Below, in pieces: positions 41,876 to 60,179 of a stretch of DNA of 64,000 nucleotides (positions are counted from its first letter, which is position 1; every line of letters starts with the position of its first letter). The notes under the pieces were generated by a model, which worked only from the letters and a program-made list of their open reading frames with translations, searched no databases and was not told the origin of the DNA. A program made the position numbers and the translations under genes. This stretch comes from the human T2T-CHM13v2.0 reference genome, Homo sapiens: NCBI RefSeq assembly GCF_009914755.1, contig NC_060925.1. The stretch is one strand, 5' to 3'.

Positions 41876-43642
41876 AAGAGGCATACTGTACTTCTTAGAG
41901 CAACCAATAAAAATTAGTAAAAAATATTTTTTAAAAAGAAATTTATACAGAGAATTTGCCTCAATTTTTTTTCAATTGAAAGCCATGTCTTCCTGGTAAA
42001 AAGAGAGATGCTAGCAGCAAGAGCAACTAGGGTTAATTCTGACTCCAGAGGGATTTCTGGTCTACACTGATAGGTTGGCCATTAGCATTGCTCAGATTCT
42101 TATATAAATTGTATAGACTCCCACAGGATGGACATAAACCACATTTAGGTAGAAACTAAATCATTGACAGAGAGTTTCAACAAAACACTAACTGGATAAC
42201 CTTTTCTTTCTGATGCTATAGCCAGGAGGACATGTGAAAGGATTGAATCACAAGGGAAAAAGTTTCTAACTATGAGCACAGAATGTTCTTCATAACATTT
42301 GGCTGTGCAAATATGTATAAAATCCTCCCACTTCTTTAGAAAATAACATTTGAATTAACAAAACAGCTCTTCATTGAAAGAGAAACCTTTCAGCATTTCT
42401 GAATATGTGTAAGTTTGTACAACAGCTAGTTGGAAAATACATAACTGGAAATGTGCGAATGTAATTCATGGAATCCATGATGTTTTGATAGAGACTATTT
42501 TAAAACTGATATTTGTACAATCTGGAAGAAAATGAGGATTTTTAAATGGTCTCAATTAGTAAATCAGCTGTATAGAAAAATTAGGTTTGCATAGGGCAGC
42601 GATCAGCATAAACGAGAACGAAGCATGAAAGCAGATCACTAGATTATGCAAAACCAGCACCTGAAACTGGAGGATCTATTGGACATTCCACACTCTCCAC
42701 TTCTGGTTAAAGAAATCAAAGACAGTGATGTGAGGATGAATCGAATAACTAATATCAAAACCACACTGCAATGATAACTGAATTATTCATAATTAATCAT
42801 TCTAAACCATTTCCCAGTGATACCAAATTTCTTCCTAATTATTAAATTCAAATGAAGTCATGTTGGACTCATTACTGACCTCCCTCCATAATATCCAGAC
42901 AATCATAGGTCTTTCCAGATATCCCTTTACTGCCACTTGCATTATATTTCCTCTCCTTCCTCTATATCAGTTTTTCATCAGTCAGTATCTGAATTACCCA
43001 ACACTCTTTCCTATCTTGAATACCACTGAAAACAAATCTTCCTTAAACGCTGTAATTGCACTGCTTGAAAACATACAGGAGCTCTCTGGTAAATACTGTC
43101 TCAAGCCCAGCCTTCCCTGCTAGCCTTTCTGGATTCCTTACAACCAGTCTTACCAAATTCATCCAATAGTACTTCCCAATAGCTGCCAACATACTTCCTC
43201 CAGTGGTAAAAAGTCACTTCTGGGCAACATGCCCTATTCCTTCTCAGACACAGAGGCTTCATTTTTTACTTCTGCCTCAATTGTCTCCCTTAACTCAGTT
43301 TCTTAACTATTTTGCAAATTTTGTGAATTTCATTCAATTCACTCCAATATACATAGATTAATGTTGGTAAGGAAAATATTCCAGATAAAAGGGCAACGGT
43401 TTTCAGAGGTAGGGAAGAGAACTGTAGAGTGACCTCGCATGACAGTGGCAGAGTAAAACGCTATAAAAACAAGCGGCAGGGGGAGGGTGCAAATCATAGT
43501 GATTACTGAAGCTGAGAAATGTATGCCAAACTGTTCTAATCTTTCTATCATTGAATTCTGTGCTTTGAATTTTAGTTATGTTTACATGTTCATATATTTT
43601 TACATAAGCACATGAATGTGATTGTTAACTAACACACTGAAT

Positions 43643-44428
43643 TTTTTTTGTCATTTGTATTTTATTTATTTATTTAATTTTTTTTCTGATATACACCAGC
43701 AACCATTTTATTAAAAAAAAATTCAAGAGTTAGAAAATTTATATACACTTTTTTGCTTAAACTCATTTCCAGTTATCTCCCCATAGGATTTTGCCCTAAT
43801 GTAATCATTTTTATTTCTAAAAGTTTTTAACTGATCCTCTGTCATACTTCTCTTCAATAAAAATGTACCTTAAAATTGAACTTTTAAATTGTGTTTAATT
43901 TTCTAAAACTGTAATGTTCAAACTAAGAAATATATGGAAATGTATTTCTTCTTTTTTTTTTTACCGCATGCATATTTATTTATTTGATTGCCAAATCCTA
44001 CGGCATGCATAGGAAATACCATTTTCTTTTTTTTTCAATAACAGGGTTATCATTTATTATTTTGATTAACTCCTCATTTAGCATTAGGTATATCTCCTAA
44101 TGCTATCCCTCCCCCCTCCCCCCACCCACAACAGTCCCCGGTGTGTGATGCTCCCCTTCCTGTGTCCATGTGTTCTCATTGTTCAATTCCCACCTATGAG
44201 TGAGAACATGCGGTGTTTGGTTTTTTGTCCTTGCGATAGTTTGCCGAGAATGATGGTTTCCAGCTTCATCCATGTCCCTACAAAGGACATGAACTCGTCA
44301 TTTTTTATGGCTGCATAGTATTCCATGGTGTATATGTGCCACATTTTCTTAATCCAGTCTATCGCTGTTAGACATTTAGGTTGGTTCCAAGTCTTTGCTA
44401 TTGTGAATAGTGCCGCTATAAACATACG
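43643..44428 (-). mobile_element. L1PA3-like 3' fragment (44065-44428) plus ~420 bp of 3'-transduced sequence in a single insertion
   Basis: TSD ACACACTGAAT at 43632-43642 and 44429-44439. The L1 part has 'catttagcattagg'. Three AATAAA+A-tract modules lie between the L1 and the left TSD. Confidence 0.85.
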
Positions 44429-44439
44429 ACACACTGAAT

Positions 44440-52650: not shown

Positions 52651-53681
52651 GGCTTAGAGCCAAGATGGCCGAATAGGAAGAGCTCCAGTCTACAGCTCCC
52701 AGCATGAGCGACACAGAAGATGGGTGATTTCTGCATTTCCATCTGAGGTACCAGGTTCATCTCACTAGGGAGTGCCAGACAGTGGGTGCAGGACAGTGGG
52801 TGCAGTGCACCGCCCACGAGCCGAAGCAGGGCGAGGCATTGCCTCACTCGGGAAGTGCAAGGGGCCAGGGAGTTCCCTTTCCTAGCCAAAGAAAGGGGTG
52901 ACAGACGGCACCTGGAAAATCGGGTCACTCACACCCTAATACTGCGCTTTTCCAATGGGCTTAAAAAACGGTGCACCAGGAGATTATATCCCGCACCTGG
53001 CTTGGAGGGTCCTACGCCCACGGAGTCTCACTGATTGCTAGCACAGCAGTCTGAGATCAAACTGCAAGGTGGCAGCGAGGCTGGGGGAGGGGCGCCCGCC
53101 ATTGCCCAGGCTTGCTTAGGTAAACAAAGCAGCCAGGAAGCTCAAACTGGGTGGGGCCCACCACAGCTCAAGGAGGCCTGCCTGCCTCTGTAGGCTCCAC
53201 CTCTGGGGGCAGGGCACAGAAAAACAAAAAGACAGCAGTAACCTCTGCAGACTTAAATGTCCCTGTCTGACAGCTTTAAAGAGAGCAGTGGTTCTCCCAG
53301 CCCACAGCTGGAGATCTGAGAATGTGCAGACTGCCTCCTCAAGTGGTTCCCTGACCCCTGACCCCCGAGCAGCCTAACTGGGGGGCACCCCCCGGTAGGG
53401 GCAGACACCTCACACGGCCGGGTACTCCTCTGAGACAAAACTTCCAGAGGAACGATCAGACAGCAGCATTCTCGATTCATGAAAATCCGCTGTTCTGCAG
53501 TCACCACTGCTGATACCCAGGCAAACAGGGTCTGGAGTGTACCTCTAGCAAACTCCAACAGACCTGCAGCTGAGGGTCCTGTCTGTTTGAAGGACAACTA
53601 ACAAACAGAAAGGACATCCACACCAAAAACCCATCTGTACATCACCATCATCAAAGACCAAAAGTAGATAAAACCACAAAG
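52651..53681. promoter_or_regulatory. L1 5'UTR with sense and antisense promoter region
   Basis: YY1 motif CAAGATGGCC at 52661 and residual CpGs. The antisense promoter is an established L1PA feature; activity is not shown here. Confidence 0.7.
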
Positions 53682-54698
53682 ATGGGGAAAAAACAGGGCA
53701 GAAAAACTGGAAGCTCTAAAAAGCAAAGCGCCTCTCCTCCTCCAAAGGAATGCAGTTCCTCACCAGCAATTGAACAAAGCTGGATGGATAATGACTTTGA
53801 CGAGTTCAGAGAAGAAGGCTTCAGATGATCAAACTACTCTGAGCTACAGGAGGAAATTCAAACTAAAGGCAAAGAAGTTGAAAACTTTGAAAAAAATTTA
53901 GATGAATGTATAACTAGAATAACCAATACAGAGAAGTGCTTAAAGGAGCTGATGGAGCTGAAAGTCAAGGCTCAAGAACTACGTGATGAATGCAGAAGCC
54001 TCAGGAGCCGATGTGATCAACTGGAAGAAAAGGTATCAGTGACAGAAGATGAAATGAATGAAATGAAGGGAGAAGGGAAGTTTAGAGAAAAAAGAATAAA
54101 AAGAAATGAACAAAGCCTCCAAGAAATATGGGACTATGTGAAAAGACCAAATCTACGTCCGATTGGTGTACCTGAAAGTGACGGGGAGAATGGAACCAAG
54201 TTGGAAAACACTCTGCAGGATATTATCCAAGAGAACTTCCCCAATCTAGCAAGGCAGGCCAACATTCAGATTCAGGAAATACAGAGAATGCCACAAAGAT
54301 ACTCCTTGAGAAGAGCAACTCCAAGACACATAATTGTCAGATTCACCAAAGTTGAAATGAAAGAAAAAATGTTAAGGGCAGCCAGAAAGAAAGGTTTGGT
54401 TACCCACAAAGGGAAGCCCATCAGACTAACAGCAGATCTCTCGGCAGAAACTCTATAAGCCAGAAGAGAGTGGGGGCCAATATTCAACATTCTTAAAGAA
54501 AAGAATTTTCAACACAGAATTTCATATCCAGCCAAACTAAGCTTCATAAGTGAAGGAGAAATAAAATACTTTACAGACAAGCAAATGCTGAGAGATTTTG
54601 TCACCACCAGACCTTCCCTAAAAGAGCTCCTGAAGGAAGCACTAAACATGGAAAGGAAGAACCAGTAACAGCCACTGCAAAATCATGCCAAACTGTAA
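53682..54698 (+). pseudogene. L1 ORF1 (338 codons) with three nonsense codons
   Basis: ATG 53682 to TAA 54698 in frame; stops at 53826 (TGA), 54456 (TAA) and 54666 (TAA). Confidence 0.93.
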
Positions 54699-54761
54699 AG
54701 ACCATGGAGACTAGGAAGAAACTGCATCAACTAACGAGTAAAATAACCAGCTAACATCATA

Positions 54762-58584
<3,823 letters not shown>

Positions 58585-60179
58585 ACAATGAGAACACATG
58601 GACACAGGAAGGGGAACATCACACTCTGGGGACTGTTGTGGGGTGTGGGGAGGGGGGAGGGATAGCATTAGGAGATATACCTAATGTAAATGACGAGTTA
58701 ATGGGTGCAGCACACCAGCATGGCACATGTATACATATGTAACTAACCTGCACATTGTGCACATGTACCCTAAAACTTAAAGTATAATAATAATAAAATA
58801 AAATAAAAGCCAAAGTTGTAAAGTGCATAGGCAGACAAAGAGCTAAATGAGGAGTGAACATTGAACATATCAATACACAAATAATTACATACTTACAATA
58901 CATGATACACACTCTGCAGAAAGTGATGAGATCATGGTGCAGTGAGAGAGGGGGGTCGGGGAACATAAGAGTTTCCACCCCTCTGCATGGGAGAAGTAGA
59001 AATTTACCTCAAATGCCACATTTGATTTCTCAAATCATTTTCCAGCACCATCTCTTACCTGATTCAGGTCTAGTATGAAGAATTTACCTATCTGATGTGA
59101 AAGATCTGACAGTTAAAATGCACGCTGAACTATGGGAAAGCCCCAAATTTAACACAGAAAATGTTAGACTATAACTTTCATATAGAGCCACATTGAGAAA
59201 TTGTATTTTATTCCTCAGTGGAAGAAGAAAAAAGGGTCCCTTCAGCATAATTTCTCCAGTTCTTGACTTTTCTTTGCCCAAGCAGGTTCACCAACACAGT
59301 GGTACCCAAGCATGTTATTAACAACTGCTTCCTTTCACACTTAGAATATAAACCTATTCTTGCTCTGGGGTACCTGCTAATAGCATCTCAGGGAAACAGA
59401 AAAGAATAATAATCTTTCCTCCTGCTGATTCTCTTTCTATAATACAGGTAGGGCAACAAACTTTCCTGGACCTAGGACTGACCAAGTCTTAGCACTGAGA
59501 ATCCCACATCCCCAAATAAACCGTTAGTTTCAGGTAAAGCAAGAAGGTTGGTCGTCGTCTCTGAACATACCACGTGAAGTCCTGAGTTGCCACTAAGCAC
59601 ACACAGCAGGACTGGGGAGTAGCATGGAAGTGGTAACTGGAACAACACAATAGACTAACTACCTCCCTCACAGTTTTGTAGAGACCCAGGTCTTGATTGA
59701 AGAAGAGCTTTAACCCATTTTTTTGAGACTAAAAAATATGAAAATTCAAAAATGGGTAGAATATTCCCCAAAATTCTTTTATTCTGGATAAATTAGGATG
59801 CTTCAACTAAAAAAATCTAAAATAAAAGCCACATTTTTTCATTTTAGTTGTTTCAAATTGAAAACAACTAGCCTTTGTGGTGAAATATTGAAACTATGGA
59901 AAATGTCTTAGGGAAATGTTGACCTTCTCTTAAAAAAGTTTAAAAGTTAAAATATAATTTCTCAACTGTAAAGTTTACTTTGAATTAATGGGGAAATGTG
60001 AAAGAATGATCCTAACTGAATGCAGACAGCAAAACTCCGAGATTCTATGGAGCTTTCAGCTCATAATCAAAGAGAACAGTCTGAAAACAGGGAAGAATAG
60101 AACAAGCACTATTTAAAAGTAAATTTTGTCTCAGAAGGATGAAAAGCGATAAAAGATAATTTGTATCTCTTATTCTTAA

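What the first reader, a model, noticed from the sequence alone, without database searches (positions are those of the whole stretch)
43632..44439. L1 lacking its own 3' end carries three stacked AATAAA+poly(A) modules inside one TSD: candidate serial 3' transduction lineage
Seen: ACACACTGAAT occurs at 43632-43642 and again at 44429-44439, directly at the L1 5' truncation point. On the minus strand the L1PA3-like fragment stops at 44065, about 95 nt short of the normal L1 end (compare 58700-58804 in this window), and runs into non-L1 DNA. Three modules follow. Module A: AATAAA 44058-44053, 17 nt, A-tract 44035-44022. Module B: AATAAA 43980-43975, 12 nt, A-tract 43962-43945. Module C: ~240 bp of unique DNA, AATAAA 43712-43707, 21 nt, degenerate A-tail 43685-43643. 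Known: L1 read-through causes 3' transduction, and poly(A) is added about 10-30 nt after AATAAA. Inference: a source L1 that had lost its own poly(A) signal jumped repeatedly and picked up a new flank each time, so this insert records up to three ancestral loci in order.
Basis: partly seen in the sequence, partly recalled or inferred. Interest (0 to 1): 0.82.

Follow-up and report, generated by a model that had tools for sequence, protein, structure and literature searches.

The report
Three-step L1 serial 3' transduction
A truncated L1 jumping-gene copy carries three short pieces of DNA picked up one after another from three other chromosomal sites, a known process (serial 3' transduction) seen here in an L1 lineage that had lost its own tail end.

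Summary
An 11-bp duplication (15 bp with one mismatch) brackets a minus-strand, 5'-truncated L1 (44428-44065). The L1 stops about 90 nt before the normal L1 end. Three AATAAA + A-tract modules follow.

The three modules map to three different places in the same genome. A maps to chr1:118.42 Mb, where it is native inside an old repeat. B maps to chr8:81.65 Mb (65/66). C maps to chr7:112.68 Mb (261/266). None of the donor sites has the A-tracts, and B and C begin at TT|A-rich L1-endonuclease-type sites.

The L1/A junction occurs exactly once more in the genome. That copy is a near full-length L1 at chr1:231.03 Mb. It also carries three stacked modules (A, X, Y) inside one 14-bp duplication and shares only A with the window copy. 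It also shares one derived base that is absent from 16/16 of the closest L1 copies.

Serial 3' transduction by a 3'-deleted, read-through-prone L1 lineage is therefore well supported (about 0.85).

Caveats:
- No identified donor site holds the source L1 in this assembly.
- Primate orthologues could not be checked.
- Module X lacks a canonical signal.

Serial transduction is already described in print, so this is a tidy new example and not a new mechanism.

The parts
44429..44439 (-). 5' target-site duplication (ATTCAGTGTGT in L1 sense). It extends to 44443 as a 15-mer with one mismatch.
   Evidence: (D3)
44065..44428 (-). 5'-truncated L1 fragment (364 nt) ending at GAGTTAAT. It lacks about the last 90 nt of L1 and the native poly(A) signal. 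G at 44151 is a derived base shared with the sibling copy.
44036..44064 (-). Module A (29 nt), with AATAAA at 44058-44053. Its native copy is at G000:C1:118422910-939, inside an old interspersed repeat.
44027..44035 (-). Poly(A) 1 (9 A). It is absent at locus A, where the sequence continues TAAAGATAAAG.
43961..44026 (-). Module B (66 nt), with AATAAA at 43980-43975 and 43984-43979. The donor is G000:C8:81648909-81648974 (+), 65/66 identical. Donor context is CCTTTT|GAAAATGG...GCGGTAA|TTGTTT.
43951..43960 (-). Poly(A) 2 (9 A plus one G), absent at donor B.
43685..43950 (-). Module C (266 nt), with AATAAA at 43712-43707. The donor is G000:C7:112680427-112680692 (-), 261/266 identical. Donor context is CTCATT|AAGAAATACA...ATCAGA|TTACTG. 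The donor reads GATAAA at the signal position.
43643..43684 (-). Terminal degenerate poly(A) tail (42 nt), absent at donor C.
43632..43642 (-). 3' target-site duplication.

Best explanation
This is one L1 retrotransposition event: minus strand, 5'-truncated, dead on arrival. Its RNA template came from the third generation of an L1 lineage that had lost its last ~90 nt and its native poly(A) signal.

The founder sat at chr1:118.42 Mb and used an AATAAA 7 nt into the flank, which became module A. A progeny copy landed at chr8:81.65 Mb, read through, and was polyadenylated 66 nt into that flank (module B). Its progeny landed at chr7:112.68 Mb, read through again for 266 nt (module C), and that RNA was inserted here.

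A sister branch from the same founder picked up two other modules (X from chr5:180.5 Mb, Y from another L1's 3' end). It is preserved as a near full-length copy at chr1:231.03 Mb.

Shown: the anatomy, the three separate donor loci, non-templated A-tracts, endonuclease-type boundaries, the shared junction and the shared derived base.

Inferred: the existence and later loss of the intermediate full-length sources, the way the founder lost its 3' end, and that read-through is a property of the lineage.
For: (1) A single TSD brackets L1+A+B+C. The motif occurs only twice in the window, and 0/100 shuffles reach 2 matches.

(2) The modules map to three chromosomes: C at 261/266, B at 65/66, and A within a 34/34 match between the sibling and locus A.

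(3) All three A-tracts are absent at the donors. Each starts 12-22 nt after an AATAAA.

(4) In the donors, B, C and Y are each preceded by TT and start A/G-rich (TTTT|GAAAA, TT|AAGAAA, TT|AAGAAAA). This is the L1 endonuclease target type TT/AAAA, as quoted in 10.1101/2025.02.02.635956 (passage seen). The Y context is taken from the other L1 in this window because Y's own donor was not found. In the window only 8.5% of such A-rich starts follow TT (157/1842), which gives about 6e-4 for 3 of 3. X fits too if one small change is allowed.

(5) The 25-nt L1/A junction occurs exactly twice in the 3.1-Gb genome. The native locus A matches with 2 mismatches. The 3-mismatch hits are no more frequent than the reversed-pattern control (10 matches versus 11 control).

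(6) The second copy is about 6.1 kb of L1 plus A+pA+X+pA+Y+pA inside one 14-bp TSD, AAGAAGTGACATGA.

(7) Window 44151 G is shared with that copy, against A in 16/16 of the closest other L1 copies.

(8) All 4 post-founder generations captured new flank. At published per-insertion transduction rates of 8.8% (PMC12350158) or ~25% (PMC13009371), 4 of 4 has p = 6e-5 to 4e-3.

(9) A is native at locus A. Paralogous copies of the old repeat (72-77% identical) align straight across the junction point.
Against: None of the four identified donor loci (A, B, C, X) holds an L1 with the deletion in this assembly. There is no L1PA-like hit within +-1.5 kb, or within +-5 kb for B and C apart from an unrelated 74-78% L1 2.3 kb away. 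Every intermediate therefore has to be postulated as a lost allele.

Donor C reads GATAAA where the insert reads AATAAA.

Module X of the sibling ends without any AATAAA/ATTAAA in its last ~40 nt.

The X boundary needs a T->AA change to fit TT|AAGAA, and its donor match is only 90% (next best <=81%; 40 of 358 candidates scored).

Y's donor could not be identified (best 93%; 40 of 6499 candidates scored).

A-rich segment starts are inherently ambiguous against a preceding poly(A).

No outgroup genome was available to show an empty site.
Confidence: 0.85

Rival explanations
1. This is a template-switch chimera. During one TPRT event the L1 reverse transcriptase started on a polyadenylated RNA from chr7 (C), jumped to the poly(A) tail of an RNA from chr8 (B), and then jumped to the tail of an L1-A read-through RNA. 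No intermediate genomic L1 copies ever existed at the B and C loci.
For: Donor loci B and C carry no L1, which this model predicts directly. L1 chimeric insertions made by template switching or RNA ligation are documented (10.1101/2025.02.02.635956, passages seen). A-rich segment starts could give microhomology with a poly(A) tail.
Against: The documented chimeras put the other RNA 5' of a 5'-truncated L1 (passages). Here the L1 is the 5' part.

The TT immediately upstream of B, C and Y in the donors is not part of the copied sequence, so it is unexplained by RNA-level switching.

The model needs two switches, each landing precisely on a poly(A) tail. It then needs the same rare double event again in the only other copy with the L1/A junction.
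Confidence: 0.08
2. These are nested later insertions. L1+A+poly(A) inserted first, and short orphan retrocopies of B and then C later landed in its poly(A) tail. Poly(A) tails are good endonuclease targets, and the outer TSD would stay intact.
For: A-tracts flank B and C on both sides, so A-only TSDs of nested events would be invisible. The outer TSD does not distinguish this model from a single insertion.
Against: It requires two independent, extremely 5'-truncated retrocopies (66 and 266 nt) of otherwise uncopied loci; B and C have no other copy in the genome. Both would have to hit the same tail in the same orientation. Their 5' ends would also have to coincide with TT|A-rich sites in the donors. 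The sibling shows the same stacked architecture with different modules.
Confidence: 0.04
3. This is a single transduction from one composite donor, or a post-insertion rearrangement or assembly artefact.
For: None found.
Against: A, B and C map to three chromosomes, with no contiguous A-B-C block anywhere else in the assembly. The boundaries are clean and sit inside a perfect TSD.
Confidence: 0.01

Closest known systems
Serial (multigenerational) L1 3' transduction
   Same: The insertion has L1 followed by flank-derived segments, each ending in its own poly(A), all inside one TSD, and the 3'-most segment is the youngest. [quoted passage not shown] PMC13009371 describes a reference L1 -> germline insertion -> somatic insertion cascade that carries two tags (passage seen).
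   Different: Here there are three tags, not the two of the example I read. The event is old and fixed, with modules 1.5-2% diverged from their donors, not polymorphic or somatic. The L1 itself lacks its native 3' end. None of the source copies survives in the assembly.
L1 transduction families traced to a lineage progenitor (e.g. PMC6425141)
   Same: Several insertions share one progenitor-derived 3' tag, and some add tags of their own. The tag identifies the founder locus (passages seen).
   Different: That family has 14 members and an extant, active full-length progenitor with a normal L1 3' end. This lineage has 2 surviving members and an empty founder site, and its tag replaces the deleted L1 terminus.
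3'-truncated L1 insertions by internal priming or endonuclease-independent insertion
   Same: This is a possible origin of the founder. L1 sequence is joined to locus A without poly(A), 90 nt short of the L1 end, with TAAT/T microhomology at the joint. Internal priming is described as 'a type of 3'-truncation' in PMC4859970.
   Different: This is only an inference. A later microhomology-mediated deletion of L1 end + tail + flank would give the same joint. The founder allele is not available to inspect.
L1 chimeric retrocopies (U6/L1, Alu/L1, mRNA/L1)
   Same: Several unrelated sequences are joined in one orientation inside one TSD (10.1101/2025.02.02.635956).
   Different: In those chimeras the non-L1 partner lies 5' of a truncated L1, and the parts are not separated by poly(A) tracts preceded by AATAAA. 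Here the partners lie 3' of the L1 and each has its own signal and tail.

Membership tests
L1 3' transduction (serial) | One target-site duplication brackets L1 plus all extra segments. | tested here: met
   The 11-nt exact (15-nt, 1 mismatch) repeat lies at 43632-42 and 44429-39. It occurs only twice in the window, and 0/100 shuffles reach 2.
L1 3' transduction (serial) | Each extra segment is a copy of unique DNA found elsewhere, in the same orientation as the L1. | tested here: met
   A maps to chr1:118.42 Mb, B to chr8:81.65 Mb (65/66) and C to chr7:112.68 Mb (261/266). These are three different loci.
L1 3' transduction (serial) | Each segment ends in a non-templated poly(A), 10-30 nt after a poly(A) signal. 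| tested here: met
   The A-tracts are absent at all three donors. AATAAA lies 17, 12-14 and 21 nt upstream. Caveat: donor C reads GATAAA.
L1 3' transduction (serial) | The segment begins at the source element's insertion site, an L1 endonuclease TT/AAAA-type site that is the source's 3' TSD. | tested here: met
   The donor contexts are CCTTTT|GAAAAT and CTCATT|AAGAAA. The background frequency of TT before such starts is 8.5%.
L1 3' transduction (serial) | At the donor locus the segment lies immediately 3' of a full-length source L1. | tested here: not met
   No L1 with the deletion is present at any of the 4 identified donor loci in this assembly. This is compatible with lost or unfixed source alleles, but it is not shown.
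L1 3' transduction (serial) | Related insertions share the older tag(s). | tested here: met
   The exact L1/A junction is present once more, at chr1:231.03 Mb, in a near full-length copy with two further modules of its own. One derived base is shared.
L1 3' transduction (serial) | The empty site is present in species that diverged before the insertion. | not testable with these tools
   No primate genomes other than the window's own assembly are held.
Template-switch L1 chimera | The non-L1 partner is joined 5' of a 5'-truncated L1, with no poly(A) signal + tail between the parts. | tested here: not met
   The partners lie 3' of the L1, and each has AATAAA plus an A-tract. The chimera architecture is taken from passages.
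L1PA3 subfamily | Subfamily-diagnostic bases in the 3' UTR/ORF2 end. | not tested
   No classifier or consensus library was available. The closest scored genomic L1 copies are 96-97% identical, and there are 6 private differences in 364 nt against the majority of 16 of them.

The most novel reading that the evidence does not exclude
The 3' deletion made this an obligately transducing L1 lineage. With the native terminus gone, every one of at least five successive germline jumps (founder->A; then B, C; and X, Y in the sister branch) captured new flank. The lineage stayed mobile long enough for its two surviving copies to differ about two-fold in age. If so, it is a natural in vivo demonstration that the last ~90 nt of L1 are dispensable for repeated retrotransposition, and that their loss turns an L1 into a serial DNA shuffler. 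A bolder and less likely add-on is that the return of the final copy to within 413 kb of the founder locus is not chance.
Probability: 0.45. Interest if true: 0.55.

Novelty: new member of a known kind. Interest (0 to 1): 0.4.

Why it matters
The insert is a readable travel log. One 786-bp insertion names, in order, three earlier genomic addresses of an L1 lineage whose full-length members have all vanished from this genome. Together with its sibling, it reconstructs at least six retrotransposition events and five lost source copies from two fossils.

It also gives natural evidence that an L1 without its own 3' terminus and poly(A) signal can keep propagating, and that such an element transduces flank at every step. 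That bears on how L1 shuffles genomic DNA. The mechanism itself is textbook, so the value is as a clean worked example and as a testable prediction for ape genomes. It is not a new principle.

Tried and rejected
- Source L1s at the donor loci were sought with BLAST against the window's full-length L1 and with a genome-wide junction pattern. None was found.
- Y's donor was sought. It cannot be identified among L1 copies: the best hit is 93%, and only 40 of 6499 candidates were scored.
- Lineage signal in the L1 body was sought. The sibling is not among the 40 best-scoring matches to the window's L1 fragment (95% versus 96-97%), so the L1 body alone does not link them. Only the junction and one shared derived base do.
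- Relative dating gives only a suggestion that the sibling is older. C versus its donor is 5/266 and X versus its donor is 7/135 substitutions (my count from the alignment). Private L1 differences are 6 versus 13 of 364. Each comparison alone is not significant (p=0.12 and 0.16), and the pooled p is 0.027.
- Splicing as the origin of the L1/A joint was rejected because there is no GT at the break in the L1 sequence.
- Literature: the exact phrase 'serial transduction' occurred in none of the 20 papers listed. 'Two consecutive transductions', 'multiple transduced' and 'tandem transductions' occurred in none of the 15 papers listed. The concept was found under 'serial 3'-transductions' and 'multigenerational ... 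cascade'. I ran no search aimed at a 3'-deleted, always-transducing L1 lineage, so I make no claim about whether one is in print.
- Gene annotation of the donor loci was not available, so I could not test whether B or C are 3' ends of known transcripts.

Full report
**1. The observation**

On the minus strand (L1 sense) the sequence reads as follows: flank; ATTCAGTGTGT (44439-44429); an L1 fragment (44428-44065); non-L1 DNA (44064-43643); ATTCAGTGTGT (43642-43632).

- The 11-mer occurs only at these two places in the 64-kb window. The expected count is 0.05, and 0 of 100 shuffles reach two matches. The repeat extends to 15 nt with one mismatch (D3).
- The L1 part ends at GAGTTAAT. The large L1 elsewhere in the window continues from that motif for about 90 more bases and an A-rich tail (58703-58809).
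- There are two small corrections. The first A-tract is 44035-44027, because the following GAAAA belongs to module B. Module C is 266 nt rather than ~240 nt.

**2. Where the three modules come from**

I searched the window's own 3.1-Gb assembly with 44064-43643. Besides the self hit, this gave three separate origins.

- Module C (43950-43685) matches G000:C7:112680427-112680692 at 261/266.
- Module B (44026-43961) matches C8:81648909-81648974 at 65/66.
- Module A (44064-44023) matches two places on chromosome 1.

Neither B nor C has any further copy. At the donors the sequence runs straight on where the insert has A-tracts:

- donor B: ...GCGGTAA|TTGTTT
- donor C: ...ATCAGA|TTACTG
- locus A: ...TTATTGTAAAGATAAAG

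The A-tracts are therefore non-templated tails, each 12-22 nt after an AATAAA.

**3. Locus A and the L1/A joint**

One chromosome-1 match (C1:118422910 onward) has module A with no L1 in front of it...CTGTAAT|TCAAAATAATAAATGATAAC.... It lies inside an old interspersed repeat. The other copies of that repeat (72-77% identical) align continuously across the point where the L1 joins A in the insert. A is therefore native there, and this is the founder locus.

The joint shows TAAT/T microhomology between the L1 and the flank. Three routes would give this joint:

- the founder inserted by internal priming;
- it inserted by an endonuclease-independent route;
- it lost its end, tail and some flank by a later small deletion.

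This cannot be decided because the founder allele is absent. Splicing is unlikely, since there is no GT at the break.

**4. A sibling**

The other chromosome-1 match is contiguous with L1 sequence across the identical joint (385/406 identical over L1+A). A 25-nt pattern spanning the joint occurs exactly twice in the genome, in the window and at this site. Locus A matches at 2 mismatches. The 3-mismatch hits are no more numerous than for the reversed-pattern control.

Fetching 10 kb showed a minus-strand L1 that aligns to nearly the whole 6.1 kb of the window's large L1. It is followed in order by:

- module A;
- 12 A;
- a ~145-nt piece, X;
- 13 A;
- a 374-nt L1 3' end with a normal terminus, Y;
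- a tail.

The whole composite sits between two copies of AAGAAGTGACATGA, 6.7 kb apart. Its reading frames are broken; the longest open stretch is 300 codons.

X matches C5:180506252-399 at 90%, while all other scored hits are 81% or less (40 of 358 candidates scored). At that donor a 5'-truncated Alu has since inserted at the start of X.

Y's donor cannot be singled out among L1 copies.

The only other carrier of the joint therefore also has three stacked modules, and it shares only the first.

**5. Common descent beyond the joint**

Over the 364-nt L1 fragment, the sibling (95%) is not closer to the window copy than many other L1 copies are (96-97%). I aligned the fragment and the sibling with the 16 best of those copies.

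- One position (window 44151) has G in both the window copy and the sibling, and A in 16 of 16 others.
- There are 6 private differences in the window copy and about 13 in the sibling.

Module-to-donor divergence points the same way: C is 5/266 and X is 7/135 substitutions, the latter by my count from the alignment. Pooled, the sibling looks older (p=0.027). Each comparison alone is not significant.

**6. Why serial transduction and not the rivals**

Two rivals need no source L1 at the donors:

- reverse-transcriptase template switching onto the poly(A) tails of unrelated RNAs;
- later nested insertion of tiny orphan retrocopies into the first tail.

Both are favoured by one fact. None of the four identified donor loci holds an L1 with the deletion in this assembly. 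Three observations weigh against them.

First, B, C and Y start exactly after TT at an A/G-rich run: CCTTTT|GAAAAT, CTCATT|AAGAAA and GGATT|AAGAAAA. For B and C this is read at the donor. For Y it is read from the other L1 in the window, because Y's own donor was not found.
- This is the L1 endonuclease target type (TT/AAAA, as quoted in 10.1101/2025.02.02.635956). It is what is expected if a source L1 once sat immediately upstream.
- The TT is not part of the copied segment, so RNA-level models do not predict it.
- In the window only 157 of 1842 such A-rich starts follow TT, which gives about 6e-4 for three of three.
- X fits as CACTT|AAGAA only if a T->AA change is allowed, so I do not count it.

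Second, the documented chimeras place the foreign RNA 5' of a truncated L1, which is the opposite of the layout here.

Third, both rivals need a rare double event to have happened independently in each of the only two copies that carry the joint. A read-through-prone lineage explains both copies at once.

All four post-founder generations captured new flank. At published per-insertion transduction rates of 8.8% (PMC12350158) or about 25% (PMC13009371), that has a probability of 6e-5 to 4e-3.

**7. Inferred history**

- Window branch: founder at chr1:118.42 Mb (L1 without its end, using the AATAAA 7 nt into the flank) -> copy at chr8:81.65 Mb -> copy at chr7:112.68 Mb -> this 5'-truncated copy at chr1:118.83 Mb.
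- Sister branch: founder -> chr5:180.5 Mb -> inside another L1 at GGATT|AAGAAAATG -> chr1:231.03 Mb.

That is at least six retrotransposition events and five full-length sources. The four whose sites were identified are absent from the assembly; Y's donor site is unknown. Their loss is plausible because most new insertions never fix, but it is an inference.

A likely reason for the persistent read-through is this. Module A's AATAAA worked at locus A with its native U/GU-rich downstream sequence (...GAGTTTTTCAATTTTGTC...). After each jump that downstream sequence is replaced by an A-tract and new flank. This explanation is also an inference.

**8. Weak points**

- The intermediates are missing.
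- Donor C has GATAAA where the insert has AATAAA. The direction of that change is unknown.
- X has no canonical signal before its tail.
- Boundaries next to poly(A) are inherently ambiguous by a few A's.
- No outgroup genome could be examined.
- Gene annotation at the donors was not available.

**9. Comparison with what is known**

[quoted passage not shown] It also lists internal priming as a form of 3' truncation (passages seen).
- PMC13009371 describes a two-tag multigenerational cascade (passage).
- PMC6425141 describes a 14-member transduction family with an extant progenitor (passages).

The mechanism is therefore established. What is particular here:

- there are three tags in a fixed, old copy;
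- the L1 lacks its own terminus;
- a sibling has an independent three-tag stack.

I ran no search aimed specifically at a 3'-deleted, always-transducing L1 lineage. I read passages only and no supplements, so I make no claim about whether such a lineage is in print.

**10. Verdict**

Novelty: a new member of a known kind. Interest is moderate (0.4). It is a clean, checkable example with a clear prediction for ape genomes, not a new principle.

Noticed in passing
window 43643-44428 versus G000:C1:118422910 (locus A): The final insertion lies only 412.7 kb from the founder locus of its lineage, and the only sibling is on the same chromosome. Yet the immediate parent inferred for the window copy was on chr7. 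The chance is about 2.6e-4 for this pair, or about 0.006 over 21 pairs of lineage loci. No mechanism is known to me, and it may be coincidence.
   Followed up: partly
L021 (G000:C5:180504752-180507899), about 1650-1880 on the minus strand: At the donor of module X, a 5'-truncated Alu with its own ~10-nt duplication (ACATATTCTG / ACCTATTCTG) sits within about 10 nt of the point where the lost L1 source must have inserted. Two independent retro-insertions therefore hit almost the same spot.
   Followed up: partly
L008 about 7437-7427 (minus strand), G000:C1 near 231035430: Eleven extra bases (TGCATTCTGTT) lie between the sibling's 5' target-site duplication and the start of its L1 (CCAAGATGGCC...). 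This may be a short 5' transduction from its unidentified parent locus, or untemplated addition.
   Followed up: no
window 52654-58818 (+): This is a near full-length L1, about 6.1 kb, with a normal 3' end. I used it as the in-window reference. It is about 87% identical to the sibling's L1, so it is a different, more diverged copy.
   Followed up: partly
window 43962-43974 and 43999-44011: A 13-nt direct repeat (TACCGCATGCATA / TACGGCATGCATA) lies inside module B (D4). Both copies are also present in the chr8 donor, so it is native to the donor and not a product of the insertion.
   Followed up: yes
L007/L009, G000:C1:118422100-118422600: An older L1 3' end, 85% identical to the window fragment, lies about 300 bp upstream of native module A. 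It has its own normal terminus and tail, so it is not the founder of the deleted lineage.
   Followed up: yes
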